Source of the DNA: Deltaproteobacteria bacterium
Lineage (GTDB): Bacteria; Myxococcota_A; UBA9042; DTJE01
Assembly (NCBI GenBank): GCA_029547805.1
Contig: JAKPOP010000010.1
Location: 209,675 to 273,674 of the forward strand
DNA: 64,000 nt
Direction: 5' to 3'
The position numbers were made by a program, and so were the translations under genes. How positions within the stretch are numbered: position 1 is the first letter of the stretch; each line of letters starts with the position of its first letter. Below, piece after piece: positions 13,829 to 55,547 of the stretch. The notes under the pieces are model-generated. The model saw nothing but the letters and a program-made list of their open reading frames with translations. It ran no database searches and was not told where the DNA came from.

Positions 13829-14404
13829 CTACTCGGTCTCGTTGTCCACGAAGAACGCCGAGGAGCCGACCTGGGAGCACTCCGCGTAGATGGCCTTGGG
13901 GTCACCGAAGATCAGCCGCTGGAAGGTCGACATCGTGGTGTCGCAGTCCAGGTCGGCGTGAGCGTTCGCGGTGGCCTTCGCCTGATCCAGCGTGGAGTTG
14001 TTGCTGTCGAAGGAGTAGACGAAGTACACCTCGTCCGAGATCTGGAACGACAGGGCCGCCCAGGTCTTCGTGTTCCAGGCGTCGCTGTTCGAGTCGCAGC
14101 GGTTGTCGGCGTTGGTGTCCAGCGCGGTGTCGCAGCAGGACGCGCCGGGGGTGACGCCCTGGTCGGTCGGGAACTGGCAGTAGATCTTGGAGCCGGTGGC
14201 GGCGATGTGGGGCGCCGTGTAGTAGTACGCAGCGCCCTTGTAGATCTTGTCCAGCTCGTCGATGGCCTCGGTCGTCTTCGCGCGCCGCATGTACTTGATG
14301 AAGGCGGGGACGGCGATGACCGCCAGGATGCCGAGGATGGCCACGACGACCATCAACTCGACCAGCGTGAAGCCCTTGACGTTCAGTTTCCGGAACTTGT
14401 TCAT
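13829..14404 (-). CDS. pilA: Type IVa major pilin (prepilin with N-terminal cleavage/methylation domain)
   Basis: ATG at 14404 has an AAGGAGG RBS. Translation is MNKFRKLNVKGFTLVELMVVVAILGILAVIAVPAFIKYM.., with the class-III signal G|FTLxE and a hydrophobic alpha-1 helix. The Cys-rich variable C-terminal domain resembles Myxococcus PilA. Confidence 0.9.
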   Translation of the reverse strand: MNKFRKLNVKGFTLVELMVVVAILGILAVIAVPAFIKYMRRAKTTEAIDELDKIYKGAAYYYTAPHIAATGSKIYCQFPTDQGVTPGASCCDTALDTNADNRCDSNSDAWNTKTWAALSFQISDEVYFVYSFDSNNSTLDQAKATANAHADLDCDTTMSTFQRLIFGDPKAIYAECSQVGSSAFFVDNETE

Positions 14405-14785: not shown

Positions 14786-16846
14786 ATGGGACGACCAGGG
14801 GCCTGGTTCGCGGCGATCCTGGTCGCCGTTGCGCTGCGGTTCGCCTCGGGGTGGCCCCTGGTGGCAGGACCGGAGGCCCTGCCCTTTCCCGATGACGCCC
14901 CCTACCACTGGATCCGCCTTGGGGCCCTGGCGGCAGGCCCCGTGGACCTCCAGGCCCCGGACCCCGGGTCGGCCTGGCCCGAGGGGGTCCGGGCACACTG
15001 GCCCTGGGGGTTCGATCTGGCCATGGCGGCACTGATGCGCCTTGCCGGGGCATCGGGGGACGCCCTCTTTCGATTCAGTTCCTGGGCCATTCCGATCCTG
15101 GGGGCGCTGCTGCTGCCCCTGGTCTGGGTGCTGGCCCGGCGCCTGGGCGGTCCGACGGTGGCGGCGATCGCGACGGCGCTGGCTGCCGTGATGCCGTTCC
15201 ACGTGCAGTACTCGATGGTGGGACGGGTGGACCACCACGTCCTGGAGCCCATCTCCCTGGCCGTGGCCGTGTCGGGCCTGCTTCCGGGCACCTCGTGGAT
15301 CGGTGCCGGGCTCTCGGGACTGGTCCAGGGGATCTCCTTCGCCCTCTTTCCGTCAGCCCTCTACCCGGTATTGGTGGTGCTGACCCTCGGAGGCCCCCTC
15401 GCCGCGTTGCGGCGCCCGGGACCGACCTCCCTCTGGGCCATCGTCACCTGGGCCGGTGCCGCAGCCTCCCTGACCGTCTCCCCCTATGCCCAGGACTGGG
15501 CCTTTTTCGCCCCCTCCCGGACCCACCTCGTGCTCACAGGCATCGGAGTCCTTGGAGTCCTGGGAACCGCCGTCGCCAGGCGCCTGTGTCCGGCGATTCC
15601 GCCATGGCGGTTCCCGCCGGCCGCAAGCGAAGACCAGGGAGGGGGAGCCGCCGCGAACCGTGCGCGGCGCGACGAAGGGGACGGAGCGCTTCCCCGCTGG
15701 CGGACGACCCGGGAGGCCATCGCGCTGGGCGTCGGCGTTGCGGCGGCCGGAGTCGCCGGGGCGGCGCTCTGGTGGGCCTTCCCGTCGTGGGTCGATTCCT
15801 TCCGCGAGGGGATCGCCTACCTGGGTGGAAGCGGCTTCGCCCGCCTCTCCTTCGAGGCCCGCCCCCTGCTCAGCGATCCCCTCCGGGCATGGACTCTCCT
15901 GGGGGTTGCCGCCCCTCTGGGTCTGGCGGGGATCTGGAGACTGGCCGGCCCCGCCGATGCCCCCCCGGGGGTCCGGGAGGCCCGGCAGCGGTTCGCCCTG
16001 CTGGCCCTGGCCCTCTCCGGCGGGGCGCTGCTGCAACGTCGGTTCGTGATGGTGGCCGTGCCCCTGCTGGCGCTGGCCATTGCCGAGGGTCTGGTCCTCT
16101 TGGGGTCCTGGGCGGGCGCTCGGCTGACCCGACGCGGCGTCCGACGCTCCCTGGTGGGGCTGCTGCTCGGGTCCGGCCTCGTCGCCATCCTGGTCCAGGA
16201 CGCCCGGCAGGCCCTCGGGCTGAATCCCTGGCAGCCTCGAGACCAGGCCTTTCTCCAGGCGGCTCGGCTGATCTCCCGGAGGGTCCAGGAGACCCCGGAC
16301 CTCCCCCCGATGGGGGCGCTGGCTCCCTGGGGCGCCGGGCACCTGGTCCGGTGGGCCTCGGGGCTCCCGGTGGTCTGCGACAACTTCTTCGGCGCCCCGG
16401 ACCACGACCGGGGGCTCCGGAACTGCCTCGCGTTCCTGCTCGAGACGGACGAGAACAGGGCGATCCAGATGCGGGAACGGCTCCAGGTCCGGTTCGCGTT
16501 GATCGCGCCGCCCCATCCCGAGGAGGTCCGGGTGATGGGCACCCTGATGGGCCTGCCGGAGGGATCGCTGGTGGACGACCGGGACCGGTTCACGGCCCGC
16601 TTCGCCCGGACGACCTGGGTCCGTCTGGGTCGCTTCGCCAGCGGCTCCGCCCCGGGGTCCCGGGGGCCTCTCGGGTCCTCCCTGGTCGGAAACGTTCTCA
16701 TCCGAGACCGCGATCGTGGGGAGGTCCAGGCGGAGGTCGCGGTGCTGGAGTTCGGAAGCGGCCAGCCCGGCTCCGCTGGGGGGCTTTACCCCGAGGTCCC
16801 CTCGGAAGAGAATGCGGCCCGTCGGATGCCCGGAGAAGCCCCGTGA
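14786..16846 (+). CDS. Polytopic GT-C membrane protein, STT3/AglB/PglB-like oligosaccharyltransferase homologue with degenerate catalytic motif
   Basis: ATG at 14786 has a G-rich RBS. About 13 predicted TM helices are followed by a 200-aa periplasmic domain. The first loop has FPDDAPYHWIR (compare STT3 DPWFNYR and AglB D-x-D..Y-H-x-R). A second GRVDHH loop follows. After the last TM the order ETPDLPP..APWGAGHLV..VVCDNFFG parallels STT3 TPxD..SWWDYGY..vDNnTW. Confidence 0.55.
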   Translation: MGRPGAWFAAILVAVALRFASGWPLVAGPEALPFPDDAPYHWIRLGALAAGPVDLQAPDPGSAWPEGVRAHWPWGFDLAMAALMRLAGASGDALFRFSSWAIPILGALLLPLVWVLARRLGGPTVAAIATALAAVMPFHVQYSMVGRVDHHVLEPISLAVAVSGLLPGTSWIGAGLSGLVQGISFALFPSALYPVLVVLTLGGPLAALRRPGPTSLWAIVTWAGAAASLTVSPYAQDWAFFAPSRTHLVLTGIGVLGVLGTAVARRLCPAIPPWRFPPAASEDQGGGAAANRARRDEGDGALPRWRTTREAIALGVGVAAAGVAGAALWWAFPSWVDSFREGIAYLGGSGFARLSFEARPLLSDPLRAWTLLGVAAPLGLAGIWRLAGPADAPPGVREARQRFALLALALSGGALLQRRFVMVAVPLLALAIAEGLVLLGSWAGARLTRRGVRRSLVGLLLGSGLVAILVQDARQALGLNPWQPRDQAFLQAARLISRRVQETPDLPPMGALAPWGAGHLVRWASGLPVVCDNFFGAPDHDRGLRNCLAFLLETDENRAIQMRERLQVRFALIAPPHPEEVRVMGTLMGLPEGSLVDDRDRFTARFARTTWVRLGRFASGSAPGSRGPLGSSLVGNVLIRDRDRGEVQAEVAVLEFGSGQPGSAGGLYPEVPSEENAARRMPGEAP

Positions 16847-18117
16847 AGGTCGCGGTCATCGGAGGCGGTTCCACCTATACGCCGGAGTTGATGGAGGGGC
16901 TCATTCTGCGCCGGGAGGAACTCTCGCTGGACGAGGTGGTGCTCCAGGACATCGACCTGGACCGCCTGGATCCCGTGGCAGGCTTCTGCCGTCGGATGGC
17001 GAGTCACCTGGGAGCGCCGGACCTCCGGGTCCGCGACACGCGGGACCTTCCGGAGGCCCTCTCGGGGGCCTCCTTCGTGGTGGTCCAGGTCCGGGTCGGG
17101 GGACAGAAGGCACGGCACCTGGACGAGACGCTTCCCCTGCGCCATGGCTGCATCGGCCAGGAGACGACGGGGGCCGGCGGCTTCGCCAAGGCGATGCGCA
17201 CCATCCCGGTCCTGCTGGAGATCGCCGAGGCGGTGAAGCGCCATGCCCCGGGGGCCTGGTGGATCAACTTCACGAACCCCTCGGGAATGGTCACCGAGGC
17301 CCTGATGCGCCACGGAGGCGTCCGGACCGTGGGCCTCTGCAACATCCCGATGGAGATGCGGATCCAGGCGGCGGAACTGCTGGGAGCCCCGGTCGAGGAG
17401 GTCCTGCTGGACTACGTGGGCCTGAACCACCTGGGCTTCGTCCGGGGCGTCCGGTGGCACGGGAAGGACCGCCTCCCGGACCTGCTGGCCTCCCTGGCGG
17501 AGTTCCAGGGACCCGCCAACCTCCCGGGCATCGAGATCCCGGGGGACGTGGTGGCCGCCCTCGGGGCCATCCCCTCGGGGTACGTCCGGTACTACTACTG
17601 CACCGAGGAGGTCCTCCAGGAACTGCAACGACAACCCCGGAGCCGGGCCGAGGTGGTAATGGACCTGGAGGAGCGACTGTTGGCCATCTATCGAGATCCG
17701 GCAGAGTTCCGCAAGCCGGACCTCTTGCAGCAGCGGGGCGGGGCATGGTACAGCCGGGTCGCGGTGGACGTGATGGCGGCCCTGCTGTCCCCGGTGCCGA
17801 GCATCCACGTGGTGAACGCCCGGAACGGGGACACGGTGCCGGGTCTGCCGGCGGACGCCACCGTGGAGGTGCCCTGCCGGGTGTCGGCCCACGGGGTGGA
17901 GCCGCTGCCGCTGACGCGGCGGGTCCCCGACGAGATGATGGGGCTGATCGCCCAGGTGAAGGCCTATGAACGCCTGGCGATCGAGGCTGCGGTGACCCGC
18001 TCGCGACGGTGGGCGCTGCTGGCCCTGATGGCCCATCCCCTGGTGCGGACGGCGGAGAAGGCCAGGGGCATCCTGGAGGAGATGACGCGGGCGGGAAGCA
18101 TTCCGCCCCTGTCCTGA
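16843..18117 (+). CDS. Glycoside hydrolase family 4 protein (NAD+/Mn2+-dependent 6-phospho-glycosidase family)
   Basis: The GTG start overlaps the upstream stop (GTGA). Translation VKVAVIGGGSTYTPELMEGLILRREEL.. is the hallmark GH4 N-terminus, and CNIPME (Cys-containing active-site region) is present. Only the last 424 aa of the 940-aa track ORF are genuine. Confidence 0.85.
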   Translation: MKVAVIGGGSTYTPELMEGLILRREELSLDEVVLQDIDLDRLDPVAGFCRRMASHLGAPDLRVRDTRDLPEALSGASFVVVQVRVGGQKARHLDETLPLRHGCIGQETTGAGGFAKAMRTIPVLLEIAEAVKRHAPGAWWINFTNPSGMVTEALMRHGGVRTVGLCNIPMEMRIQAAELLGAPVEEVLLDYVGLNHLGFVRGVRWHGKDRLPDLLASLAEFQGPANLPGIEIPGDVVAALGAIPSGYVRYYYCTEEVLQELQRQPRSRAEVVMDLEERLLAIYRDPAEFRKPDLLQQRGGAWYSRVAVDVMAALLSPVPSIHVVNARNGDTVPGLPADATVEVPCRVSAHGVEPLPLTRRVPDEMMGLIAQVKAYERLAIEAAVTRSRRWALLALMAHPLVRTAEKARGILEEMTRAGSIPPLS

Positions 18118-18189
18118 CGAGGACCTGCCCCGGGCCCCGTCAGGACGGGCCGGGGCCAGCGCCGGGCTTCGAAGAAGGAGGAGTGTCCC

Positions 18190-19443
18190 ATGAGCGAGGA
18201 ACTGGCACTGTTCGGAGGCACCTCGGTTCGCACGACCCCATTCGCCCCCTGGCCGTACTTCGATGACCGGGAACGGACACTGCTGATGCAGGCCCTGGAG
18301 TCCCGCAACTGGGGTGGCTATCCCTTTCCGAGTCCCCTGGCCGAGGACTTCGGGGAGCGGTTCGCGAAGGTCCACGGCGCCCGCCATGCCACCCCGTGCG
18401 CGAACGGGTCCGTCACGATGGAGATCGCGCTGCAGGCCGCAGGCATCCGGGCCGGAGACGAGGTGATCGTCCCGGCCCTGACCTTCATGGCCACCGCGGC
18501 CTGCGCCATCCGGGTCAACGCGGTGCCGGTCTTCGTGGACATCGAGCCGCGGAACTACTGCATGGACCCCGAGGCCGTCGAGGCCGCCATCACCCCGAAG
18601 ACCCGGGCCATCATCCCGGTGCACCTGGGGGCCAGCATCGCCGACATGGACCGGCTGCTGGAGATCGCCCGGCGCCACGACCTGATCGTGATCGAGGACT
18701 GTGCTCATGCCCACGGCGGGCAGTGGCGAGGCCAGGGCGTCGGGTCGATGGGGGACTTCGGGTCCTTCAGCCTCCAGTCGTCGAAACTGATGACCAGCGG
18801 CGAGGGCGGCGTGCTGACCGTCCGGGACGACGAGATGTTTGAGCGGTGCATGTCGCTGATCAACTGCGGGCGCAAGGAGCCTGGATACGACCGGTTCGAG
18901 GGGCAGTTGTTCGGGGCCAACTACCGGATGAGCGAGCTGCAGATCGCCGTGGCGATGGCCCAGCTGGAGCGCCTGGAGGAGGTGACCGAACGGCGGGCCC
19001 GGATGCACGCCCGCTTCAAGGAACTGCTCCATGGGGCGGTCCAGGGGCTCCGGGTGCTCGACACGGACCCCCGGGTCACCCGCCTCCACTGCTACCAGAC
19101 GATCATGCGCTACGACCCCGAGGCCTTCGCCGGCGTCCCCCGGGACCGGGTCCTGGAGGCCCTGGATGCCGAGGGCGTGCACTTCTCCGGCGATTTCTAC
19201 GAGCCGCTCTACCGCATTCCTCTGATGAACGCCACCAGCGACCGGTGGCCCATGCTTCGGGAGCGGTACGGCGATGGAATCCTGGGCCATCCGGAGATCT
19301 GCTGCCCGGTGGCCGAGAAGGCCGCCTACCAGGAGGGGGTCTGGATGCACTACCCCCATCTCTCGGGCACCCAGAAGGACCTGGAGGACATCGTCGAGGC
19401 GATCGCGAAGGTGCAGCGGCTGGCCCATCGGCTTCGCGGCTGA
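18190..19443 (+). CDS. DegT/DnrJ/EryC1/StrS-family PLP-dependent sugar aminotransferase
   Basis: Fold-type I sugar aminotransferase pattern: ..ATPCANGSVTMEIALQAAG..VIVPALTFMATAA..IPVHLGASIADM..DCAHAHGG..FSLQSSKLMTSGEGG (PLP-lysine region). Confidence 0.9.
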   Translation: MSEELALFGGTSVRTTPFAPWPYFDDRERTLLMQALESRNWGGYPFPSPLAEDFGERFAKVHGARHATPCANGSVTMEIALQAAGIRAGDEVIVPALTFMATAACAIRVNAVPVFVDIEPRNYCMDPEAVEAAITPKTRAIIPVHLGASIADMDRLLEIARRHDLIVIEDCAHAHGGQWRGQGVGSMGDFGSFSLQSSKLMTSGEGGVLTVRDDEMFERCMSLINCGRKEPGYDRFEGQLFGANYRMSELQIAVAMAQLERLEEVTERRARMHARFKELLHGAVQGLRVLDTDPRVTRLHCYQTIMRYDPEAFAGVPRDRVLEALDAEGVHFSGDFYEPLYRIPLMNATSDRWPMLRERYGDGILGHPEICCPVAEKAAYQEGVWMHYPHLSGTQKDLEDIVEAIAKVQRLAHRLRG

Positions 19444-19472
19444 AGAGCCCCAGGACTCGAAAGGAGGCTGCC

Positions 19473-20582
19473 ATGAGCGAGACGTTTGGTGTGGGTCTGG
19501 TGGGTTCGGGGTTCATCAGCCTCACCCACCTCCAGTCCCTGCGCACGATTCCGGGCGTCGAGGTCCGGGCCGTCGCCGACGTGGACCTGGACCGGGGACG
19601 GCTCTTCGCCGAGACCCACGGCATCCCGAAGGCCGTGGCCTCCCACCAGGACCTGCTGGAGGACCCGTCGATCCGGGCCGTCGTGGTGGGTGTGCCGAAC
19701 TGCTTCCATCACGGGATCACGATGGACGCCCTCCGGGCCGGACGGCACGTCATCTGCGAGAAGCCCCTGGCGCTGACGCTGGAGCATGCCGAGGAGATGG
19801 TCCGGACGGCCCGGGAGAAGGGCCTGGTGCTGGGCTATGCCGAGGAGCTGTCGTTCGTGCCGAAGTTCCTCAAGGCCGGGGAACTGATGCGGTCCGGCGG
19901 CATCGGCAAGCCCTACCTGCTGCGGCAGTGCGAGAAGCACGCCGGCCCCTACTCCCCCTGGTTCTGGATCCCCGAGCAGGCCGGCGGGGGCATCCTCATG
20001 GACATGGGATGTCACAGCATCGAGTGCATCCGCTTCCTGCTGGGCAAGCCCCGGGTGGCGTGGGTACAGGCCCACATGGGCACCTACCTCCACCGGGAGA
20101 TCACCGTCGAGGAGGACTTCTGCCTGGTCCTGATGGGCTTCGAGGACGGGACCATCGGGCAGGCCGAGTCCTCCTGGGCCCTGAAGGGGGGCATGGACTC
20201 GACGCTGGAGGTCTTCGGCACCGAGGGGGTCATCCAGGCGGACCTGCTGAAGGGCATGGGGATCCGGGCCTACTCGGAGAAGGGCTTCCCGGAGATGTGG
20301 GAGCCAAACCAGGGCTGGGTCTTCCCGGACTACGAGTGGCTGTGGAACAACGGCTACCCCCAGGAGGACCGGCACTTCATCGAGTGCATGAAGACCGGGC
20401 AGGTCCCAGTGGAGTCCGGGGAGGACGGACTGGCGGTGCTGGAGATCATGCTGGCGGCCTACCACAGCGCCGGGATCGGCCAGAGGGTGCGGCTGCCCTT
20501 CCGGCCCAGGGGCCTGACGGTCCCACCGGTGGACCTGTGGCTCCATCCCCGCCCGGAACTCGGTGCGGGACCGATTCCATGA
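19473..20582 (+). CDS. Gfo/Idh/MocA-family NAD(P)-dependent sugar oxidoreductase
   Basis: AAGGAGG RBS. Rossmann motif GVGLVGSGFISLTH. The EKPLALTLEHAEEMV motif is typical of this family. Confidence 0.9.
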   Translation: MSETFGVGLVGSGFISLTHLQSLRTIPGVEVRAVADVDLDRGRLFAETHGIPKAVASHQDLLEDPSIRAVVVGVPNCFHHGITMDALRAGRHVICEKPLALTLEHAEEMVRTAREKGLVLGYAEELSFVPKFLKAGELMRSGGIGKPYLLRQCEKHAGPYSPWFWIPEQAGGGILMDMGCHSIECIRFLLGKPRVAWVQAHMGTYLHREITVEEDFCLVLMGFEDGTIGQAESSWALKGGMDSTLEVFGTEGVIQADLLKGMGIRAYSEKGFPEMWEPNQGWVFPDYEWLWNNGYPQEDRHFIECMKTGQVPVESGEDGLAVLEIMLAAYHSAGIGQRVRLPFRPRGLTVPPVDLWLHPRPELGAGPIP

Positions 20583-20674: not shown

Positions 20675-21202
20675 ATGCGGGCACGAATGGCTTCCCAGGA
20701 AACCAAGAGCGGAACTCGGCAGGGAAGACGAGGGGTTCGCACGATCGCGGCCCGGCGGCTGTCCAAGGTGGACCTCTCGGACGGCCTTCCTTTCGACCCG
20801 GAGGAACTGGAGCGGTTGCGGCCCCGAGTCCGGTCCGACTGCCTTGACGGTCCGAGGCCCTGTCCCTGGGTGGGGTGCAAGTATCACCTGTACCTGGACA
20901 TCAATCCGCGGACCGGGTCGATCAAACTGAACTTCCCGGACATCGAGCCCTGGGAGATGACCCAGTCCTGTGTCCTTGACATCGCCGACCAGGGCCCTGT
21001 GACGCTGGAGGACGTCGGCCGCATCATGAACCTGACCCGGGAACGCATCCGGCAACTGGAGGTGGCGGCGTCCGAGAAGGTCCGGTCCTCCCGGGTCGCC
21101 CTGGAGTACCGGGAGTTCCACCGGGAGACGCCCCGCACGGTCACCCGCCGCCCTGCTCCGGCCGTGGCGGAAGAGGAGGAAGAGGAGGCCGAGGACCTCT
21201 GA
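20675..21202 (+). CDS. Small DNA-binding protein consisting of a Cys/His cluster plus a sigma-70 region-4-like HTH; acidic C-terminal tail
   Basis: ..[18 protein letters not shown].. is followed by [23 protein letters not shown], which resembles the region-4.2 HTH of sigma-70 factors. It ends [11 protein letters not shown]. No sigma region 2 is present. Confidence 0.55.
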
Positions 21203-21420
21203 TCCCGGGACCGATGCCCCCGTCCCGCTGCTCTCCGTCCCCCCTCCCCCGCCGGTCTCCAGTCGACCCGTTCCCGGCCCAAGGATGTCCGGTTCCGTCC
21301 TCCCGGAAGGGTCCGGCCAGCGAGGAATTGCGTCCCGAGCGCAGCGGCGCGGCCTTGAAAGGGTGGGTCCGCTCCTCTACACTGTCCGCGGTGTCTGCTT
21401 CCGTGGCTGGGAGGTGGCAA

Positions 21421-24400
21421 GTGCGAGGCAGGAACTGGTGGATGAGCGCGACGCTGGTGCTGCTGGTTGCCTGCGACCAGGGCGGAGGCGGTTCCACCGA
21501 CGCCCGGGACCCTGGACCGGGGGACACGGCCGACGAGATCCCGGACCTCCCGGTCGTCATCAACCCCGATGACGGCCCTCGGGACGTCCGCGAGACCCTG
21601 GTCGAGGACCAGGGTTCGGGGCCTGACGATGCGGGACCGGACCTCCCGGCGGACCCGGGTGGAGACACCCTCGAACCGGGGGCCCCGGGCTGGCCCTGCG
21701 AGAGGGCCTCGGAGTGCAACTCCCAGTACTGCATGGACTCCCCCGATGGGAGGGTCTGCGCACAGATCTGCATCACCGAGTGCCCGGAAGGGGCGCGGTG
21801 CCTCCAGGTCCAGCAGGTCCCGGACCCCATCTTCGCCTGTGTCTATGTGTTCGCACGACTCTGCCGCCCGTGCATCCAGGACGCCGACTGCGTGGTGCCC
21901 TACGTCCCGGGAACCTCGGGATGCGTCCCCGGGGACCTGGGGTCCTTCTGCGGGGCCTTCTGCAACCGGGACCAGGACTGCCCTGCCGACTTCGGCTGCC
22001 GCGAGGTCCGCCTGGCCGGCGGCCTCCAGGTGAACCAGTGCGTACGCCTCCAGGGAGAGTGCGGATGCAGCCAGGCGGCCATCGAGGCCAAGGGCTGGAC
22101 GGTGTGCTGGGTCGAGAACGAGTTCGGCCGCTGCCGGGGCCAGCGGCGCTGCGAGGAGAACGGCCTGACCCCCTGCGATGCGCCCACCCCGGCCCTGGAG
22201 GCCTGCGACGGGGTGGACAACGACTGCAATGGCGTCACCGACGATATCGAGTCGAAGCCCTGCCTGGTGCGGAACGAGTACGGGTCCTGCCCCGGGCTCT
22301 CGGGCTGCCGCCTGGGTCAGGAGATCTGCGTGGGGACGCCGGCGGCCCCGGAGGCCTGCGACGGGGTGGACAACGACTGCGACGGCCTCACCGACGAGGA
22401 GGATGCCTCAGGGTGCCGCACCTACTACAAGGACCAGGACCAGGACAACTACGGGGTCCTCCAGGACAACCGGTGCCTCTGCGCCCCGCAGGCCCCCTAC
22501 CGGACCACCGCGGCCGGGGACTGCGACGACGAGGACCCGGAGCGGCATCCCAACCTGGCCGAGTCCTGCGACGGCAAGGACAACAACTGCAACGGGGTCA
22601 CTGACGAGCCCGGGACCCAGGGGTGCACGACCTTCTATCGGGACGGCGACGGCGATGGCTACGGAGTCACGGCCGACTCCCAGTGCCTCTGCGTGGCGAC
22701 GGCCCCCTATCTGGCCACCCAGGGAGGCGACTGCAACGATCAGAACCTGGACGTCCACCCGGACGCCCTCGAGACCTGCAACAGCCGGGACGACGACTGT
22801 GATCGGTTGATTGATCCGGAGGGGTCATACAACTGCCAGTCCTATTACTACGACGGGGACGGCGACGGTTTCGGGGCCAGGAACCGCCCGGCCCGGTGCC
22901 TCTGCTGGCCCGACAGGGCGGGGAAGTACACCGCCCTGACGAACACGGACTGCAACGACGGCGACCGGCAGGTCAGCCCGGCGCAACTGGAGCAGTGCGA
23001 GGACGGCATCGACAACGACTGCGACGGATTCACCGACGAGCCGGGCGCACAGGGATGCACGAACCGGTGGATCGACGAGGACCGGGACGGGTGGGGTGGC
23101 GGGGATCCCCTGTGCACCTGCCAGGCCGAGGCTCCCTACCTGGTAGAACGGGGCGGCGACTGCCGGGACCGCGACGCCTCGATCAACCCCGGAGAGAGCG
23201 AAGCGTGCGGGGACGGCATCGACAACAACTGCAACGGGGCCACCGACGAGGAGGGGGCCTCGGGGTGCGTGAACCGATGGGAGGACCTCGACCGGGACGG
23301 GTACGGCCAGGGCAGCCCCCGCTGCCTGTGTGCCGTCGAAGGGACCTACACTGCCCGTTACGGAGGCGACTGCGACGAGAACGACGCCACCCGGAATCCC
23401 GGGGCCTTCGAGGTCTGCGACGGCATCGACAACAACTGCAACGACGTCGCCGACGAGGAGGACGCCATCGGCTGCTCGCCCTGGTACTACGACTTCGACG
23501 GCGACGGCCACGGGGCCGTCGGGTCGGGGCGCTGCCTCTGCGGGTCGGCAGGCTTCTACCGGTCCCAGGATGACCGGGACTGCAACGACCGGGACCCCGC
23601 CATCGGTCCCCAGGCCACCGAGGTCTGCAACGGGGTGGACGACAACTGCGACGGGGCCACCGACGAGGAGAACGCGCAGCAGTGCCAGTCGTATTTCTAC
23701 GATGGGGACCGGGACGGCTATGGGTCGATGGTGGTGGCGTCCCGCTGCCTCTGCGGCCCGGACATCCCCGGGAAGTTCGACACCCGGAACGGGGGCGACT
23801 GCGACGACGGCAATGCCAATGTCCGTCCCGATCAGCCCGAGGTCTGCGAGCCCGAGGGTCAGGCCTCCCGGGACGACAACTGCAACGGCATCCTGAACGA
23901 GGAGAACGCCCTTTACTGCCTGAACTACTACTACGACGGAGACCGGGACGGTCATGGGACGCCTGATCGGTCCCCCAGATGCTTCTGCTCGGGTGGCAAC
24001 GCCGCCCTGAAACATGACAGCCGGTTCTCGGACGACTGCGACGACAACGACCCGCTGACCTCCGGAGGCCTGCTGGAACGCTGCAGCGACGGCAAGGACA
24101 ACAACTGCAACGGGGCCACTGATGAGGAGGGCGGAACCGGATGCCTCCCCTACTACCGGGACAACGACCGGGACGGCTACGGGGCCATCGGGGACTACCG
24201 ATGCCTCTGCGCGCCGGACCCCCTGGGGGTCTATGTCGCCTCGGAGGGCGGGGATTGCGACGACATGGACGGCAACACCCACCCCGGCGGAGCGGTCTGC
24301 GGCAAGGACGGCAACTGCGACGAAGCGCCCCTGGACCCGGGCGAGGCCTGCGACGACGGCAACGCCGTGTCCTGGGACGGGTGCACGAACTGCCAGTTCT

Positions 24401-25545
24401 CGGAGATCCGGGTCAACTCGCCCTATGTGAACGACCAGGTGTACCCGGCGGTGGCCCCGCTGGCCTCCGGAGGATACGTGGTGACCTACCGGACGGACCG
24501 GATCTCCACGAGTTACGACGTCGCCTTCCGGCTGATCGATGACCAGGGGAACCTGGTCGGCACCACCGAAAGCACCGCCAATGCCACCACGGCGGGCACC
24601 CAGCAGTTCCCCTCGGTCGCCGCGCTGCCCGGTGGCGGTTTCGCGATCACGTGGGAGTCCCTGGGCCAGGATGGCGACGGGAGCGGCGTCTATGGCCGGG
24701 TCTTCAACGGCTCCGGCTCTGCGACAAGCGGTGAATTCCTGGTCAACGGGACCACGCTGCTGGACCAGAAGGCGCCCCGGGTCGGGGCCCGGCCCGACGG
24801 GTCCCTGGTCGTGACCTGGCAGTCCTGGCTCCAGGACGGCTCTGAGTGGGGGGTCTATCTGCGCCGCATGGGTGTCGATGGAGTCCCCCTGGGGCCCGAG
24901 ACCCGGGTGAACCAGACGACGGCGGGGCCCCAGGACCAGCCTCGGGTCGCGGTGCTGCCGGACAACCGGTTCGTGATCGCCTGGAGGGGGCTCGTGTCCC
25001 GTGGAGGCTCCTCCACGGACCGGGACATCTTCCTGCGGCGCTACCTGGCCGACGGGACCCCAGATGGCAACGAGTTCGTGGTCAACGCCACCACGACCAA
25101 CGACCAGCAGGTGCCGGGCGTGGCCCCCCTGGGCAGCGACCAGGTGATCGTCGTCTGGGAGTCCTCGGGACAGGACGGCAGCGGAACGGGGGTCTACGGG
25201 CGCATCGTGGGAATGGACGGCACCTTCAAGACCAACGAGTTCCGGGTGAACTCCTATGCCTTGCAGGACCAGGGGATTCCCGCGGTGGCCTCCAACGCCG
25301 CTGGCCAGTTCGTGGTGATCTGGCAGTCGGCCTACCAGGACGGCGACGGCCTCGGGGTCTACTACCAACGCTATGATGCGACCGGCACCCCCATCGGCCT
25401 GGAGACCCGGCCCCACCTCCAGACGGCCAACGACCAGGCCCAGCCGGTCATTGCCGCCCAGAGCCTCCACTTCCTGCCGGTCTGGGCCTCCTTCGGACAG
25501 GATGGTTCGGGGTGGGGGATCTTCGCCCGGCGCCAGACCTGGTAG
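21421..25545 (+). CDS. Giant secreted lipoprotein with 13 tandem MopE-like putative metal/calcium-binding Cys-rich repeats, one myxo disulfide repeat and seven 55-aa C-terminal repeats
   Basis: A GTG at 21421 (or the ATG at 21442) gives [18 protein letters not shown] with a lipobox. Repeats follow: C..YY.D.D.DG[YFW]G....C.C..P..Y......DCDD.D....P.A.E.CDG.DN[DN]C[DN]G.TDE, then [15 protein letters not shown], then VN.T...Q..P.VA.L..GGFVV.W.S..QDGSG.GVYGRR ×7. Clear third-position GC bias. Confidence 0.85.
22171..24396 (+). repeat. Tandem array of about 13 coding repeats (about 200 bp each) encoding the MopE-like Cys-rich modules
   Basis: The recurring nucleotide blocks tgcgacgg(g/c)gtggacaacgactgc(g/a)a(c/t)gg.gtcaccgacgag encode CDGVDNDC[ND]GxTDE. 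Confidence 0.8.
24412..25542 (+). repeat. Seven about 165 bp coding repeats (putative beta-propeller blades) at the 3' end of the giant gene
   Basis: Periodic protein motif ..VNxxTxxxQxxPxVAxLxxGGFVVxWxSxxQDGSGxGVYGRRF.. repeated seven times up to the C-terminus. Confidence 0.6.
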
Positions 25546-46333: not shown

Positions 46334-47110
46334 CTACCACTTCCGGGGACGACTCGGGCGGCGTCCGGGCCGCAGCACGCGCCAGACCAGGGCCCCGAAC
46401 CACTCGGCGGGACCCAGCACCACGTAGAGCAGGCCCAGGGTCAGCAGCACGGCGCTGGTGTGGGTCTTCAGCACCGCGATCAGCAGCAGGCACGCTCCGA
46501 TCAGAATGCCGGCCTTGCCCCAGGGCCCTATCCGAACGTGCTTGAAGTTGCGGTAGCGGACGGTGCTGACCATCAGCACCGCCATGGTCACTGTCGCGGA
46601 GCCCACCAGCACGGTCCGGATCGGCTCCCCGACCTCCAGGTCCACGAGGGTCCAGCAGAGGGTCGCGATGATCCCGGCGCCCCCGGGAATCGGGAGCCCG
46701 GTGAAATAGCCCGTGGGCCCCCGGGCCCGTGCCGCCTGGACGTTGAACCGGGCCAGGCGCAGGGCCCCGCAGGCGACGAAGAAGAAGGCCAGGAAGGTGC
46801 CGACGTAGCCCCCGTGACCGTCGAGGTGCCGCAGGGCGAAGACCCAGGACAGCACCGCAGGGGCCATGCCGAAGGACAGCACGTCGGCCAGGGAGTCCAG
46901 TTCCACCCCGAAGGCGGACTCGGTCCGGGTGAGGCGGGCCACCCGCCCGTCGATGCCATCGGCGATGGCCGCCAGGATGATCGCCAGGGCCGCGTTCCGG
47001 CAGGCCTCGTCGGTGCCGGGCATGCAGGAGAGGATGGCCCACATCCCCAGCAGGATGCTGCTCAGGGTGAAGAGGTTCGGCAGGATGAACTTGCTCTGGC
47101 GCAGGTCCAT
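46334..47110 (-). CDS. pssA: CDP-diacylglycerol--serine O-phosphatidyltransferase
   Basis: CDP-alcohol phosphatidyltransferase motif DGIDGRVAR..G..LDSLADVLSFG. Multi-TM protein. Confidence 0.85.
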   Translation of the reverse strand: MDLRQSKFILPNLFTLSSILLGMWAILSCMPGTDEACRNAALAIILAAIADGIDGRVARLTRTESAFGVELDSLADVLSFGMAPAVLSWVFALRHLDGHGGYVGTFLAFFFVACGALRLARFNVQAARARGPTGYFTGLPIPGGAGIIATLCWTLVDLEVGEPIRTVLVGSATVTMAVLMVSTVRYRNFKHVRIGPWGKAGILIGACLLLIAVLKTHTSAVLLTLGLLYVVLGPAEWFGALVWRVLRPGRRPSRPRKW

Positions 47111-47281
47111 GGGGGAAGGGTAGTCCACCGGCGGCCATCAGGGCAAGCACCTCCTCCGGGACCGTCGTCCCCTGCCATGGGTGCTTCCCTGACGCCAACC
47201 GATCAAAGGCCCTCTTTTCGCGCTTTCCGTGGCGGTTCCCCTTGCGTATCATTGCCCCCGGCCCTGGCATGGGAGCCCCCG

Positions 47282-50802: not shown

Positions 50803-50805
50803 GCG

Positions 50806-52656
50806 ATGACGACCACTCCTCCGACAACGGGCGCCCCGCTGCAGACCCGGCGCCTCAAGAACGTGAAGGCCCTGCTCTGGTTCCTGGTCGGGATGGCAGC
50901 CTCCTTCGCCCTCTTCCGGTTCTGGCGGGGCATGGGCGCCACGACGAACCTCACGGACCTGACCCCCTGGGGCTTCTGGATCGGCTTCGACGTGATGGGT
51001 GGCGTCGCGCTGGCCGCCGGCGGCTTCGTGATCGCCGCGACGGTCTATGTCTTCCACCTGGAGCGGTATCGCCCCATCCTGCGCCCTGCAGTGCTGACCG
51101 CCTTCCTGGGCTACCTGGCGGTGGTCGTGGGCCTGCTCTTCGACCTGGGCCTCCCCTGGCACATCTGGCACCTGATCATCTTCTGGAACCCCCGCTCCCC
51201 GCTCTTCGAGGTGGGCTGGTGCGTGATGCTCTACCTGACGGTGCTGCTGCTGGAGTTCCTGCCGGTGGTGCTGGAACTGGCGAAGCACCCCGTGTTGTCC
51301 CGGATCTACCACGTGCTGAAGAAGGCGACGGTCCCGCTGGTGATCCTCGGGATCATGCTCTCGACGCTCCACCAGTCGTCCCTGGGCTCGCTGCTGCTGA
51401 TCATGCCCCACCGGATCGACCCTCTCTGGTACTCGCCGATCCTGCCGATCCTGTTCTTCCTGTCGGCGGTGGGCCTGGGGCTGATGATGGTGACCACCGA
51501 GTCCCTCTTCTCGGCCTGGGTCTATGAGCAGCACTACGAACTGGACCTCCTCCAGGGTCTGGCCAAGGTGGCGGCGCCGGTGCTCTGGCTCTACGGGGCG
51601 GTCCGGATCGGGGACCTGGCCTGGCGAGGGTCCCTGGGCCACGTGCTGGACTCGGGTCTGGCGCCCAGACTCTTCGTCGCCGAGATGCTCATCGCGGTGA
51701 TCATCCCGGCGACCCTGCTGTCGATCCCCGCGACCCGCCGGTCGATGAAGGGGCTGGCCATCGCGGCGGGCATGACGGTGGTCGGGTTCGTCTTCAACCG
51801 GATCAACGCCGGGGGACTGGCGATGATCGAGACGACCGGCACCCGATACGTCCCGGCGTGGACCGAGTTCATCGCCTCCCTGGGGATCGTGGCCGGAGCG
51901 GCGCTGGTCTTCTTCTTCATCGCGGAGCGGTTCCACCTGCTGCCGGCAGGGCCCATGCGCCACGCCCGGGAGCGGCTGCCGAGTGTGGGGGAGTTCCGGC
52001 CGATGCTGAACCGGGGCGCGGCGATGTTCGTGTTCGGGACGGCCCTGGCCGTGATGCTGCTTCCGTCCTCGGCGCTGGACGGGTGGCCCGTGGTGGCCCA
52101 GCCGGTCCATGGTCCGGGCTACAACGACGTGATGATCATCGACGGCAACCGGAACGACAAGGGCGTGCGGTTCGACCACAAGATGCACCTGGACGTCGTG
52201 GACACTCAGGACAAGTGCGCCTACTGCCATCACATGGTGAAGCCCGGAGCCCACGCGACGGGCTGCAGCCAGTGCCACTCCGACGAGCACCTGCCGGTCA
52301 GCATCTTCAACCATCGACTGCACCAGGAGGCCCTGTCCAAGGGCCCGGGCTGCCTCACCTGCCACGAGGACACCTCCCGGCCCAAGGACCTGGAGCACTC
52401 GCGGCCCTGCCTGGACTGCCACCGGACGATGATTCCCGAAGGGGCGGCCTTCCAGCCCGCCGGGGCCCCCAACATTGGACTGGCGGTGGGGTACATGGAC
52501 GCGATGCACGGCCTCTGCCTGAAGTGCCACCAGGAGCAGGATGGAGGCCACGCGGGCGACGCCCCGGTGCTGTCCCGCTGCAACACCTGCCACTCGGGGG
52601 TGGTCCAGCCCTTCGACCCCCTGCGCCCGGACCAGCGACTCCGGGTGTCTCCCTGA
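50806..52656 (+). CDS. NrfD/PsrC-family quinol-interacting membrane subunit fused to a C-terminal hexahaem cytochrome c domain
   Basis: About 10 TM helices over 440 aa. They are followed by six CxxCH motifs (CAYCH, CSQCH, CLTCH, CLDCH, CLKCH, CNTCH) in the last 170 aa. Confidence 0.8.
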   Translation: MTTTPPTTGAPLQTRRLKNVKALLWFLVGMAASFALFRFWRGMGATTNLTDLTPWGFWIGFDVMGGVALAAGGFVIAATVYVFHLERYRPILRPAVLTAFLGYLAVVVGLLFDLGLPWHIWHLIIFWNPRSPLFEVGWCVMLYLTVLLLEFLPVVLELAKHPVLSRIYHVLKKATVPLVILGIMLSTLHQSSLGSLLLIMPHRIDPLWYSPILPILFFLSAVGLGLMMVTTESLFSAWVYEQHYELDLLQGLAKVAAPVLWLYGAVRIGDLAWRGSLGHVLDSGLAPRLFVAEMLIAVIIPATLLSIPATRRSMKGLAIAAGMTVVGFVFNRINAGGLAMIETTGTRYVPAWTEFIASLGIVAGAALVFFFIAERFHLLPAGPMRHARERLPSVGEFRPMLNRGAAMFVFGTALAVMLLPSSALDGWPVVAQPVHGPGYNDVMIIDGNRNDKGVRFDHKMHLDVVDTQDKCAYCHHMVKPGAHATGCSQCHSDEHLPVSIFNHRLHQEALSKGPGCLTCHEDTSRPKDLEHSRPCLDCHRTMIPEGAAFQPAGAPNIGLAVGYMDAMHGLCLKCHQEQDGGHAGDAPVLSRCNTCHSGVVQPFDPLRPDQRLRVSP

Positions 52657-52862
52657 GGTCCCAGGCGCCATCGGAAGACACCCCTGCCCGGAAATGGGTC
52701 CCAGGCGAAATGCGACGGTCGAAGTCGGCCCGTCGATGGCGGTGGAACCCACCAGGGGACGTCTGCTGGACGGGGGAATGGTGAGACGGTTGACGGGGGG
52801 AGGCGAAATGGGGGATACCAGCAGCCGATGAGGCGGAACGGGGTCTGCAACGGAGGAAGGCC

Positions 52863-54578: not shown

Positions 54579-55478
54579 TCACTCGTCGGGGTCGAAGAAG
54601 TCCCTCCAGGGGTCCACCCTTCGGAAGTACAGCGTCAGGAAGCCGGCGGAGACCACCCGGCGCACCATGCCCATGTCGTTTTCCTGGGTCCGGTGGAGGC
54701 GGGTGGCCTCGGCCATGAAGTGGGCGCAGGAGAGGCCCGGGACGGCCGGGAGGGAGGCGTCGAAGGTGTGGGTGACGGGGCCGGGGTCGCCGCCCCCGCC
54801 GAGTCGAAAGACCCAGAAGCGGTTCTGCTGGAGGATGGTCCGGGCGACCCGGTGGGGCGAGAGGCCGGGGGTCTCGAAGGTGGGATCGGCAGCCTGCCGG
54901 ACGGCGAGGACGGCCAGGCGGGCGGTGAGCTGGTGCTCGGGATGGCCGGTGGCGCCGACGTATGGGTCGAAGGTGACGAGGAGGTCGGGGCGGAAGTCCC
55001 GGATGGCGGTGACGATGTCCCGGAGGGGGTCTCCCTGGGCGCGCCAGCGGGCGAGGATCTCCCGGCGGGGCGGGAAGGAGGAGACGGGCAAGGGGGCGTT
55101 CCAGTAGCGGTGGTGGTAGAGGCGGGCACGGTACATGCGGGCCACCTGAGCCATCTCCCGCCCGCGAACGGTGGCGAGGTCGGGTTCGCACCCGTCGGGG
55201 AGGCCGCACTCGCCGCCGTCGCCGTGGGTCATGACGACGAAGGCGAGGGGGTTCCGGTAATGGATGGAGGCCCGTGCCAGGAGGCCCCCGGGGAAGCACT
55301 CGTCGTCGGGGTGGGCGGCGACCCACATGGTGCGGGCGCCGGCGGCCAGGACGTCGTCGAGGGGCGGGTCAGTGGGGTCGGGTCGGCCCCGGCGGTCGGC
55401 ACCACCGCATCCGGCAATGGTTGCGAGGGGCCACAGCCCGGCGGCGACGGCCCTCTGGAGGAACGTTCTCCGGTCCAT
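54579..55478 (-). CDS. PIG-L/LmbE-family N-acetylglucosaminyl deacetylase with Tat-like signal
   Basis: MDRRTFLQRAVAAGLW (RR-x-FL twin-arginine motif). LmbE motifs WVAAHPDDE and HPEH. Confidence 0.8.
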   Translation of the reverse strand: MDRRTFLQRAVAAGLWPLATIAGCGGADRRGRPDPTDPPLDDVLAAGARTMWVAAHPDDECFPGGLLARASIHYRNPLAFVVMTHGDGGECGLPDGCEPDLATVRGREMAQVARMYRARLYHHRYWNAPLPVSSFPPRREILARWRAQGDPLRDIVTAIRDFRPDLLVTFDPYVGATGHPEHQLTARLAVLAVRQAADPTFETPGLSPHRVARTILQQNRFWVFRLGGGGDPGPVTHTFDASLPAVPGLSCAHFMAEATRLHRTQENDMGMVRRVVSAGFLTLYFRRVDPWRDFFDPDE

Positions 55479-55547
55479 GGGTCACCTCCGCCGGGATTCT
55501 AGCCCAGTTGGTCCGGGAGGACCGGGGGCCAGGGGACCCGGGCGCGG

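What the first reader, a model, noticed from the sequence alone, without database searches (positions are those of the whole stretch)
16843..20582. GH4 glycosidase - DegT aminotransferase - Gfo/Idh/MocA oxidoreductase operon translationally coupled to the OTase-like gene
Stop/start overlap (GTGA) links the OTase-like gene to a GH4-family enzyme, followed by a sugar aminotransferase and a sugar dehydrogenase. Gfo/Idh/MocA plus DegT is the standard pair for making 3-amino (or 3-acetamido) sugars, as in WbpB/WbpE-like or NtdC/NtdA-like routes. A GH4 enzyme, which oxidises C3 with NAD+ and acts on phospho-glycosides, in a biosynthetic/glycosylation context is unusual. It hints at a trimming or C3-oxidation step rather than catabolism.
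Basis: inference. Interest (0 to 1): 0.6.

Follow-up and report, generated by a model that had tools for sequence, protein, structure and literature searches.

The report
Amino-sugar glycoside salvage genes beside OTase-like gene
The four genes are really there and probably co-transcribed, but related genomes suggest the GH4 glycosidase, aminotransferase and dehydrogenase form an uncharacterised module for breaking down or salvaging an amino-sugar glycoside, not a sugar-building arm of the neighbouring glycosylation enzyme.

Summary
Observation confirmed. In this ~70% GC Myxococcota MAG, an AglB/STT3-like gene (14786-16846) overlaps by GTGA a GH4 gene (16843-18117). A DegT aminotransferase (18190-19443) and a Gfo/Idh/MocA oxidoreductase (19473-20582) follow, each behind a strong Shine-Dalgarno.

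Interpretation partly supported. The Gfo and DegT proteins most resemble 6nor/6jw6 (GenD2/KanD2 by my recollection) and BtrR, not WbpB/WbpE or NtdC/NtdA. That fits ring oxidation and transamination on a non-nucleotide sugar.

The glycosylation link is weak:
- The trio keeps its order in 11 related Myxococcota loci, but the OTase-like gene is missing from two.
- The next GH4 clades pair GH4 and DegT with a NagK-like kinase, PIG-L or YdjC deacetylases, MFS/ABC importers and ceramidase-like proteins.
- Gfo homologues elsewhere sit as DegT-Gfo-kinase without GH4.
- The GH4 keeps nearly every residue conserved in 58 mostly kinase-linked relatives.
- The window holds no glycan-assembly genes.

Best reading (about 0.5): a cytoplasmic salvage or catabolic module for an amino-sugar beta-glycoside. 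Substrate and amine position are unknown. I found no description of this combination. Moderate interest.

The parts
16843..18117 (+). GH4 NAD+/Mn2+-type glycosidase (424 aa) of the 6-phospho-beta-glycosidase subfamily
   Evidence: Pfam GH4 N and C domains. Full-length match to 6-phospho-beta-glucosidases 5c3m/1s6y (about 1e-92) and BglT 1up6 (6e-77). CNIP motif, His196, Tyr247 and the conserved Arg residues are retained, compared with 58 relatives.
16843..16846 (+). GTGA stop/start overlap between the OTase-like gene and GH4
   Evidence: Read directly from the sequence. The same overlap appears in public gene calls.
18190..19443 (+). DegT/DnrJ/EryC1-family PLP aminotransferase (417 aa), closest to 2-deoxy-scyllo-inosose aminotransferase BtrR
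   Evidence: Pfam 1.7e-93. Matches 5w71 and 2c7t at about 1e-73 over residues 4-410, with the PLP lysine in SLQSSK-LMTSGEGG aligned. It is 52-56% identical to DegTs next to GH4 or kinase genes in other lineages.
19473..20582 (+). Gfo/Idh/MocA NAD(P) oxidoreductase (369 aa) of the 6nor/6jw6 (GenD2/KanD2-like) subfamily
   Evidence: Pfam. Full-length alignments to 6nor (1.4e-72) and 6jw6 (1.3e-67), including the C-terminal WEPNQGW..EW..GY block; the next PDB hit scores only 133 bits. The EKP and DMGCH motifs are read directly from the translation.
14786..16846 (+). AglB/STT3-like GT-C membrane protein (686 aa): first gene of the apparent operon, a lineage-specific neighbour rather than part of the conserved module
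   Evidence: A profile of 11 homologues hits A. fulgidus AglB-L 3waj/5gmy at 3e-28. D37, D149/H151 and E357 are aligned. WWDYG is replaced by PWGAGH. The gene is absent upstream of the trio in L006 and L015.
20675..21202 (+). Small sigma-70 region-4-only protein (start uncertain; public call starts at about 20870), a possible downstream operon member
   Evidence: Pfam Sigma70_r4 1.7e-07. A homologous small gene follows Gfo in L001 and in L091/L092.
21214..25545 (+). Large MopE-repeat ('putative metal-binding motif') protein, conserved downstream neighbour; functional link unknown
   Evidence: Pfam PF11617, 10 repeats, 5.8e-79. It lies downstream of the trio in L001, L005, L009, L011-L013 and L015.

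Best explanation
GH4, DegT and Gfo form a conserved cytoplasmic module for salvage or catabolism of an amino-sugar beta-glycoside.

Inferred steps:
1. A NagK-like kinase phosphorylates the glycoside at O6. This kinase is not encoded in the window. Deacetylases or amidases elsewhere may first remove N-acyl groups.
2. The GH4 enzyme cleaves the 6-phospho-beta-glycoside by the family's NAD+/Mn2+ cycle: C3 oxidation, C2 deprotonation, elimination, hydration and re-reduction.
3. The DegT aminotransferase and the GenD2/KanD2-like oxidoreductase convert a ring amine to a ketone and then to a hydroxyl. The position is most likely C3, by analogy. This may happen after cleavage, feeding the sugar into central metabolism, or before it, because GH4 chemistry needs a free 3-OH.

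Shown: gene identities, intact catalytic motifs, conserved gene order, and the partner genes found in other lineages. Inferred: direction, substrate, amine position and order of steps. The AglB-like gene is co-transcribed here but is a lineage-specific neighbour.
For: Conserved order: the trio keeps the order GH4-DegT-Gfo in 11 other Myxococcota loci, at GH4 55-90%, DegT 64-95% and Gfo 66-96% identity.

GH4-DegT adjacency beyond this clade: it recurs in a sister Myxococcota clade as TPR, BadF/NagK-like kinase, GH4, DegT, PIG-L. Flanking genes there are an MFS_2 importer, ceramidase-like proteins and a Glucosamine_iso gene. It also recurs in Actinomycetes inside ROK/SBP/permease/MalK loci with kinase, SIS and deacetylase genes. 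Those loci resemble the published chitosan-oligosaccharide cluster csnREFGHK, which contains a GH4 (PMC6097792).

Gfo partners: homologues of the window Gfo at 52-56% identity sit as DegT-Gfo-kinase in 3 of 3 loci sampled, once followed by the ceramidase-like gene.

Kinase linkage: a BadF-type kinase flanks the GH4 in 57 of 76 non-window-type loci. Thermotogae have PIG-L, kinase, GH4. Paenibacillus has RpiR, a MurQ-like SIS protein, ABC transport, GH4 and kinase.

Intact enzyme: the window GH4 keeps the conserved residue at all but three of the internal positions that are at least 90% conserved in those relatives; the three exceptions (48, 288, 310) are shared with, or variable in, its Myxococcota sister clades. 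The other differences are a C-terminal extension.

Direction is feasible: GenD2 plus GenS2 run the deamination direction in vitro on kanamycin B and tobramycin (PMC4340712).
Against: None of the 12 window-type loci has the kinase, a deacetylase or a transporter within about 8 kb, so the source of a 6-phospho substrate is unexplained here. In this clade the trio usually follows an AglB-like gene (six of the eight distinct loci where the upstream DNA can be judged, plus the window), with a GT87 gene between them in L012. That could mean the module was co-opted. No enzyme of this exact clade has been characterised. The GH4 tree is neighbour-joining without support values. The identification of 6nor as GenD2 and 6jw6 as KanD2 rests on my memory; the PDB labels say only 'dehydrogenase'.
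Confidence: 0.5

Rival explanations
1. Gfo and DegT make a 3-amino or 3-acetamido sugar for the glycan that the AglB-like enzyme (and GT87 in some relatives) transfers, and GH4 acts as a trimming or C3-oxidising step.
For: The OTase-like gene and GH4 are translationally coupled. The STT3-like gene stays adjacent to GH4 in L001, L005, L007, L009 and L012 despite rearrangement of the genes upstream, and a GT87 gene lies between them in L012. The Gfo also gives a weaker match to archaeal UDP-GlcNAc 3-dehydrogenase, 139 bits against a cutoff of 450. No kinase or transporter lies nearby.
Against: The trio persists intact without the OTase-like gene in L006 and L015. The 64-kb window has no phosphoglycosyltransferase, flippase, GT-A/B enzyme, acetyltransferase or nucleotidyltransferase. 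The closest characterised homologues act on non-nucleotide substrates. Orthologous GH4-DegT and DegT-Gfo pairs elsewhere travel with kinases, deacetylases and importers. A related AglB-like gene (P0128) has no such neighbours upstream (its contig ends about 1.6 kb downstream).
Confidence: 0.2
2. The genes make or interconvert a small aminocyclitol or amino-sugar metabolite, for example scyllo-inosamine- or kanosamine-type compounds. GH4 would release it from, or process, a phosphoglycoside precursor.
For: The DegT is closest to 2-deoxy-scyllo-inosose aminotransferase. The Gfo matches IolG at 163 bits as well as the 6nor/6jw6 pair. The locus is embedded in housekeeping synteny.
Against: There is no cyclitol synthase, glycosyltransferase or other aminoglycoside-cluster gene in the window or in related loci. 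The partner genes elsewhere are importers, a NagK-like kinase and deacetylases.
Confidence: 0.12
3. The three genes are functionally unrelated and sit together only through shared ancestry of a syntenic region.
For: All window-type loci come from one Myxococcota lineage in which LigA, SpoIID, the pilin-like gene and the MopE gene are also syntenic.
Against: GH4-DegT adjacency recurs in Actinomycetes and in a 36% GC 'Deltaproteobacteria' MAG. DegT-Gfo adjacency recurs in three further loci with different flanks.
Confidence: 0.05

Closest known systems
GH4 amino-sugar disaccharide systems: E. coli/Vibrio ChbF with the ChbG deacetylase, and Streptomyces csnREFGHK (CsnH GH4 plus CsnK kinase)
   Same: They use a GH4 6-phospho-beta-glycosidase, and relatives of the window GH4 sit beside YdjC or PIG-L deacetylases, a sugar kinase and ABC or ROK genes (PMC6097792). 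The CN(I/V)P motif and metal-ligand residues are intact.
   Different: The window locus has no PTS, ABC or MFS transporter, no kinase and no deacetylase. It carries DegT and Gfo, which, as far as I recall, the chb and csn clusters lack. No NCBIfam equivalog threshold is reached.
GenD2/GenS2 and KanD2/KanS2, the aminoglycoside 3''-dehydrogenase and aminotransferase pairs
   Same: A Gfo/Idh/MocA dehydrogenase and a DegT aminotransferase act in tandem on a ring carbon of a non-nucleotide glycoside, reversibly (PMC4340712). The window Gfo aligns over its full length with 6nor and 6jw6.
   Different: No aminoglycoside cluster genes are present. The link from those PDB entries to GenD2 and KanD2 is from memory. 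The DegT's best PDB match is BtrR, not a 3''-aminotransferase. The module is partnered with a glycosidase.
NtdC/NtdA (KabC/KabA) kanosamine pathway and WbpB/WbpE or GnnA/GnnB UDP-sugar 3-amination
   Same: The chemical logic is the same: C3 oxidation followed by transamination with a Gfo and DegT pair.
   Different: Similarity is much weaker: NtdA 104 bits, WbpE 138 bits, and 60-68 bits for 3q2k/3q2i, which I recall as WlbA. There is no HAD phosphatase partner and no nucleotide-sugar genes.
Multi-enzyme 3-keto-glycoside cleavage pathways (levoglucosan dehydrogenase, A. tumefaciens OGE, Bacteroides BT_2157-2159)
   Same: A Gfo-family enzyme oxidises C3 of a glycoside, which is the step GH4 performs internally. 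The window Gfo gives weak matches to the LGDH, DgpA and BT_2159 families.
   Different: No eliminase or hydratase genes are present. Cleavage here would be done by the self-contained GH4.
Archaeal AglB / bacterial PglB oligosaccharyltransferase loci
   Same: The upstream gene is a true STT3/AglB homologue with its catalytic acidic residues conserved.
   Different: WWDYG is degenerate (PWGAGH). No pgl- or agl-type assembly genes accompany it. The single sequence falls below the Pfam STT3 gathering score.

Membership tests
Glycoside hydrolase family 4 (6-phospho-beta-glycosidase subfamily) | GH4 N-terminal Rossmann domain and GH4 C-terminal domain above Pfam gathering scores | tested here: met
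   178 and 164 bits against cutoffs of 23 and 24.
Glycoside hydrolase family 4 (6-phospho-beta-glycosidase subfamily) | Metal-ligand Cys within the CN(V/I)P motif (beta-specific phospho-enzymes, versus CDMP in alpha-specific ones), metal-ligand His, and catalytic Tyr. The residue roles are from my memory of the BglT and GlvA literature. | tested here: met
   C166-N167-I-P, H196 and Y247 are invariant in the window clade and in 58 relatives. Full-length alignment to 5c3m.
Glycoside hydrolase family 4 (6-phospho-beta-glycosidase subfamily) | Hydrolysis that depends on a 6-phosphate on the glycone | not testable with these tools
   The only support is conservation of all subfamily-conserved Arg and Lys residues, plus kinase adjacency in relatives but not in this locus.
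Glycoside hydrolase family 4 (6-phospho-beta-glycosidase subfamily) | Reaches an NCBIfam equivalog or subfamily cutoff | tested here: not met
   The best hit is PRK15076 at 201 bits against a cutoff of 486.
DegT/DnrJ/EryC1 sugar or cyclitol aminotransferases | Family domain plus the PLP-binding lysine (aminotransferase, not a His-type dehydratase) | tested here: met
   314 bits. The lysine in SLQSSK aligns with the BtrR lysine in SCQQGK.
2-deoxy-scyllo-inosose aminotransferase (BtrR/NeoB type) | Acts on an inosose within a 2-deoxystreptamine pathway, with DOI synthase nearby | tested here: not met
   No DOI synthase or aminoglycoside genes are present in the window. Sequence similarity alone is about 1e-73.
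GenD2/KanD2-type glycoside 3''-dehydrogenase (Gfo/Idh/MocA) | Gfo/Idh/MocA fold with the EKP and D-x3-H motifs, and full-length similarity to the solved enzymes | tested here: met
   Pfam. ICEKP and DMGCH are read directly from the translation. 248 and 232 bits against 6nor and 6jw6, with the next hit at 133 bits.
GenD2/KanD2-type glycoside 3''-dehydrogenase (Gfo/Idh/MocA) | Regiospecific oxidation of C3 of a glycoside | not testable with these tools
   Inferred by analogy only.
WbpB/WbpE or NtdC/NtdA 3-amination pairs | Closest characterised homologues should be these enzymes, in a nucleotide-sugar or G6P context | tested here: not met
   3q2k/3q2i (WlbA by my recollection) 60-68 bits, WbpE 138 bits, NtdA 104 bits, all far below the best hits. 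No UDP-sugar genes or phosphatase are adjacent.
STT3/AglB/PglB oligosaccharyltransferase (upstream gene) | Homology to STT3 with the catalytic acidic residues of EL1, the second metal site and the EL5 glutamate | tested here: met
   The profile hits AfAglB-L at 3e-28 over positions 12-544. D37, D149/H151 and E357 are invariant.
STT3/AglB/PglB oligosaccharyltransferase (upstream gene) | WWDYG sequon-binding motif | tested here: not met
   The aligned segment is PWGAGH. Only W515, G518 and H519 are conserved across 11 homologues.
N-glycosylation (pgl/agl-type) gene cluster | Initiating phosphoglycosyltransferase, glycosyltransferases and flippase near the OTase | tested here: not met
   Pfam scans of the candidate ORFs across the 64-kb window found none; 31.1-33.4 kb and 43.3-44.1 kb held no candidate ORF and were not scanned.

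The most novel reading that the evidence does not exclude
The trio, together with the NagK-like kinase, PIG-L/YdjC deacetylases and ceramidase-like amidases found with it elsewhere, could be an undescribed pathway that lets a GH4 enzyme cleave 3-amino-3-deoxy (or otherwise aminated) beta-glycosides. DegT and Gfo would swap the ring amine for the hydroxyl or ketone that GH4 redox-elimination chemistry requires. Possible substrates include GlcN3N-type lipid A backbones or diacetamido sugars from prey or self glycans. In this Myxococcota clade the pathway would have been wired into an operon with a WWDYG-less AglB homologue, perhaps to recycle that enzyme's glycan.
Probability: 0.15. Interest if true: 0.7.

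Novelty: new variant of a known kind. Interest (0 to 1): 0.4.

Why it matters
GH4 enzymes are known as stand-alone phosphoglycosidases fed by a PTS or a kinase. A conserved partnership with an aminoglycoside-type dehydrogenase and aminotransferase pair has not been described in the literature I could search. It would point to an unrecognised route for amino-sugar glycoside turnover in Myxococcota, Actinomycetes and other phyla. It also warns against reading 'DegT plus Gfo next to an OTase' as glycan biosynthesis by default. The upstream AglB homologue with a degenerate WWDYG motif is a separate lead on bacterial STT3 diversity.

Tried and rejected
- A single-sequence PDB search with the OTase-like protein found nothing even at E=10. 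Only a profile of homologues showed the AglB relationship.
- Literature searches found no paper describing this gene combination and no confirmation that 6nor and 6jw6 are GenD2 and KanD2.
- I looked for a degraded STT3-like remnant in L006 and L015 and found none at E<=10.
- I searched the window for the kinase, MFS, ceramidase-like and YdjC partners of the sister clade. Only a distant PIG-L gene at 54579-55481 turned up, 34 kb away.
- The GC-rich hairpin over the GH4 stop codon is not better than shuffled sequence (z = -1.4). I rejected it as a regulatory element.
- The promoter and terminator scan gave nothing within or between the GH4, DegT and Gfo genes, but it is weak evidence in a 70% GC myxobacterium.
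- My crude GC3-based gene caller mis-called several actinomycete loci. I therefore relied on tblastn coordinates and public gene calls instead.
- I considered that the window-type GH4 had lost phosphate binding or hydrolase residues and rejected this.
Full report
**What is in the sequence**

The window is about 70% GC. The GH4 protein is 100% identical to a protein annotated from a Myxococcota MAG.

Four same-strand genes occupy 14786-20582:
- an STT3-like membrane protein, 14786-16846
- a GH4 glycosidase, 16843-18117
- a DegT/DnrJ/EryC1 aminotransferase, 18190-19443
- a Gfo/Idh/MocA oxidoreductase, 19473-20582

The DegT and Gfo starts have AAGGAGGAG and AAAGGAGG at the right spacing.

Public gene calls on two contigs carrying the identical GH4 give the same genes and the same overlap. 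The consensus scan found no promoter-like site inside the block, and no terminator-like site downstream of the OTase-like gene; its two hits inside that gene (15055, 15488) are within the number expected by chance. The 366-nt, relatively AT-rich spacer shared with a divergent pilin-like gene is the likely promoter region. A small sigma-70 region-4 protein and a 1443-aa MopE-repeat protein follow on the same strand.

**What each protein resembles**

GH4:
- It aligns end to end with 6-phospho-beta-glucosidases 5c3m and 1s6y (about 1e-92) and with T. maritima BglT (6e-77).
- No NCBIfam equivalog cutoff is reached.

DegT:
- Its best solved relatives are the 2-deoxy-scyllo-inosose aminotransferase BtrR entries 5w71 and 2c7t (about 1e-73, residues 4-410). 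The PLP lysine is aligned.
- WbpE scores 138 bits and NtdA 104 bits.

Gfo:
- It stands out against 6nor (248 bits) and 6jw6 (232 bits) in full-length alignments that include a distinctive C-terminal WEPNQGW..EW..GY block. The next structure scores 133 bits, and 3q2k/3q2i, which I recall as WlbA/WbpB-type, score 60-68 bits.
- From memory, 6nor is GenD2 and 6jw6 is KanD2, the aminoglycoside 3''-dehydrogenases. I could not confirm this in the paper library.
- GenD2 with its aminotransferase GenS2 oxidises and transaminates C3'' of a glycoside. It also runs the deamination direction on kanamycin B and tobramycin (PMC4340712).

So a 'ring oxidation plus transamination pair' is a reasonable reading. 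The resemblance, however, is to enzymes that act on free glycosides or cyclitols, not on UDP-sugars or glucose-6-phosphate.

**The OTase-like gene**

As a single sequence it is below the Pfam STT3 gathering score and hits nothing in the PDB. A profile of 11 homologues matches A. fulgidus AglB-L at 3e-28 over most of its length. The EL1 aspartate (D37), the second metal site (D149/H151) and the EL5 glutamate (E357) are aligned and invariant. The WWDYG motif is replaced by PWGAGH, with only W-x-x-G-H conserved.

It is therefore a genuine but atypical STT3 homologue. A more canonical relative, P0128, stands without GH4, DegT or Gfo genes upstream, though its contig ends about 1.6 kb downstream.

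**Comparative context**

I fetched 80 loci from species-representative genomes using the GH4 as query, and further loci through exact-protein look-ups.

Window-type arrangement:
- tblastn with the window proteins shows GH4-DegT-Gfo in the same order in 11 Myxococcota loci. Identities are GH4 55-90%, DegT 64-95% and Gfo 66-96%.
- The STT3-like gene lies upstream in most of them, but at only 31-65% identity. In L012 a GT87 gene sits between it and GH4.
- It is absent from L006 and L015, whose closest GH4 relative L007 has it. No remnant is detectable.

Sister clades in a neighbour-joining GH4 tree without support values:
- The sister Myxococcota clade has a different, recurrent architecture: TPR, BadF/NagK-like kinase, GH4, DegT (54-56% identical to the window's), PIG-L.
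- That block is flanked by a divergent Gfo of another subfamily, an MFS_2 transporter, two or three ceramidase-like proteins and a Glucosamine_iso gene.
- The next branches pair GH4 with the ceramidase-like gene or with a YdjC (ChbG-like) deacetylase.

Actinomycetes:
- This clade places GH4 next to a divergently transcribed DegT (43-52% identical).
- The surrounding genes are ROK, SBP, permease and MalK, with a BadF kinase, SIS, PfkB and polysaccharide-deacetylase genes.
- The layout resembles the published csnREFGHK chitosan-oligosaccharide cluster, which contains a GH4 and a kinase (PMC6097792).

Across all non-window-type loci:
- 57 of 76 have a BadF-type kinase beside the GH4. None of the window-type loci does.
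- Thermotogae show PIG-L, kinase, GH4. Paenibacillus shows RpiR, a MurQ-like SIS protein, ABC transport, GH4 and kinase.

Gfo homologues:
- Homologues of the window Gfo at 52-56% identity, sampled in three long contigs, all sit as DegT-Gfo-(small ORF)-BadF kinase with no GH4.
- In one of the three the ceramidase-like gene follows.

**What this implies**

GH4, this DegT, this Gfo, a NagK-like kinase, PIG-L/YdjC deacetylases and a ceramidase-like family form a recurrent association network. They occur in varying combinations across several phyla. Dedicated kinases and importers point to capture of an external or recycled amino-sugar glycoside, not to de novo synthesis.

The window GH4 keeps the conserved residue at all but three of the internal positions that are at least 90% conserved among 58 mostly kinase-linked relatives, including C166-N167, H196, Y247 and the conserved arginines. 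The three exceptions (48, 288, 310) are shared with, or variable in, its Myxococcota sister clades, and the remaining differences are a C-terminal extension. There is no sign that it has become something other than a phosphoglycosidase. The rest of the window encodes housekeeping functions and no phosphoglycosyltransferase, flippase, GT-A/B or sugar-nucleotide enzymes.

**Most likely mechanism (confidence about 0.5)**

1. A kinase encoded elsewhere makes a 6-phospho-beta-glycoside of an amino sugar, possibly after deacylation.
2. GH4 cleaves it by the family's NAD+/Mn2+ oxidation-elimination-hydration-reduction cycle.
3. DegT and Gfo convert a ring amine via a ketone to a hydroxyl. C3 is the likely position by analogy with GenD2/GenS2.

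This last conversion may come after cleavage. It may instead come before, which would explain the tight GH4-DegT linkage, because GH4 chemistry needs a free 3-OH.

Gene identities, motifs and associations are shown. Substrate, regiochemistry, order and direction are inferred.

**Weak points and rivals**

Weak points:
- The window-type clade lacks an adjacent kinase, deacetylase or transporter.
- It usually carries the AglB-like gene, and sometimes GT87, in the same transcription unit. Co-option for glycan synthesis or glycan recycling therefore remains possible.

Rivals:
- Biosynthesis for the AglB-like enzyme: about 0.2.
- A small aminocyclitol or kanosamine-type metabolite: about 0.12.
- Unrelated neighbours: about 0.05.

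**Novelty and interest**

Each protein is an ordinary member of a large family. The conserved GH4 + BtrR-like DegT + GenD2/KanD2-like Gfo combination, and the wider network with the kinase and ceramidase-like genes, was not described in any paper I could find.

I rate it a new variant of a known kind (amino-sugar disaccharide catabolism with an added transamination and reduction branch) and of moderate interest at 0.4. The glycosylation framing is the part the evidence does not support.

Noticed in passing
window 14786-16846 (+): The AglB/STT3 homologue has conserved catalytic residues but WWDYG is replaced by PWGAGH (only W-x-x-G-H conserved across 11 homologues). This suggests a non-canonical acceptor. 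It evolves much faster than the trio (31-65% against 55-96% identity).
   Followed up: partly
window 13829-14404 (-): A pilin-like protein with an N-terminal methylation motif is transcribed divergently from the OTase-like gene across a 366-nt AT-richer spacer. It is 75-96% identical in relatives, so it is a candidate glycosylation target.
   Followed up: no
window 20675-21202 (+) and 21214-25545 (+): A sigma-70 region-4-only small protein and a 1443-aa MopE-repeat ('putative metal-binding motif', 10 repeats) protein follow the Gfo gene. They are conserved downstream of the trio in related loci.
   Followed up: partly
window 54579-55481 (-) and 52794-54572 (+): A PIG-L family deacetylase, weakly Mca/MshB-like, lies next to a Peptidase_M2/M3-like gene, 34 kb from the trio. 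A similar Peptidase_M2-like gene lies about 3 kb downstream of the DegT-Gfo-kinase-ceramidase-like block in L090.
   Followed up: partly
L087:13985-18570, L086:10280-11569, L090:9116-10456: A family of roughly 400-446-aa 'Ceramidase_alk'-like proteins and an unannotated 470-aa protein repeatedly accompany GH4, DegT, Gfo and kinase genes in Myxococcota. Their function is unknown, possibly N-acyl amidases.
   Followed up: partly
L012:4396-5586 (+): A GT87 (polyprenol-phosphate-mannose-type GT-C) gene overlaps the end of the STT3-like gene and sits immediately upstream of GH4 in one Anaeromyxobacteraceae relative.
   Followed up: no
window 18112-18146 (+): An 8-bp perfect GC-rich inverted repeat (TCCTGACG...CGTCAGGA) spans the GH4 stop codon. 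The fold is -43.8 kcal/mol but not better than shuffles (z = -1.4), and there is no T-tract.
   Followed up: yes
window 50803-52656 (+): The ORF combines an NrfD-like membrane domain with class III / c7-type multihaem cytochrome domains.
   Followed up: no
window 46334-47137 (-): A CDP-alcohol phosphatidyltransferase gene is present. It may be relevant if inositol or other head-group lipids are involved.
   Followed up: no
L026:6496-7989 (+): In a 36% GC 'Deltaproteobacteria' MAG, the GH4-DegT pair is preceded by a signal-peptide-bearing 498-aa protein with no Pfam hit. It overlaps the GH4 start by 4 nt and could be an outer-membrane protein.
   Followed up: no
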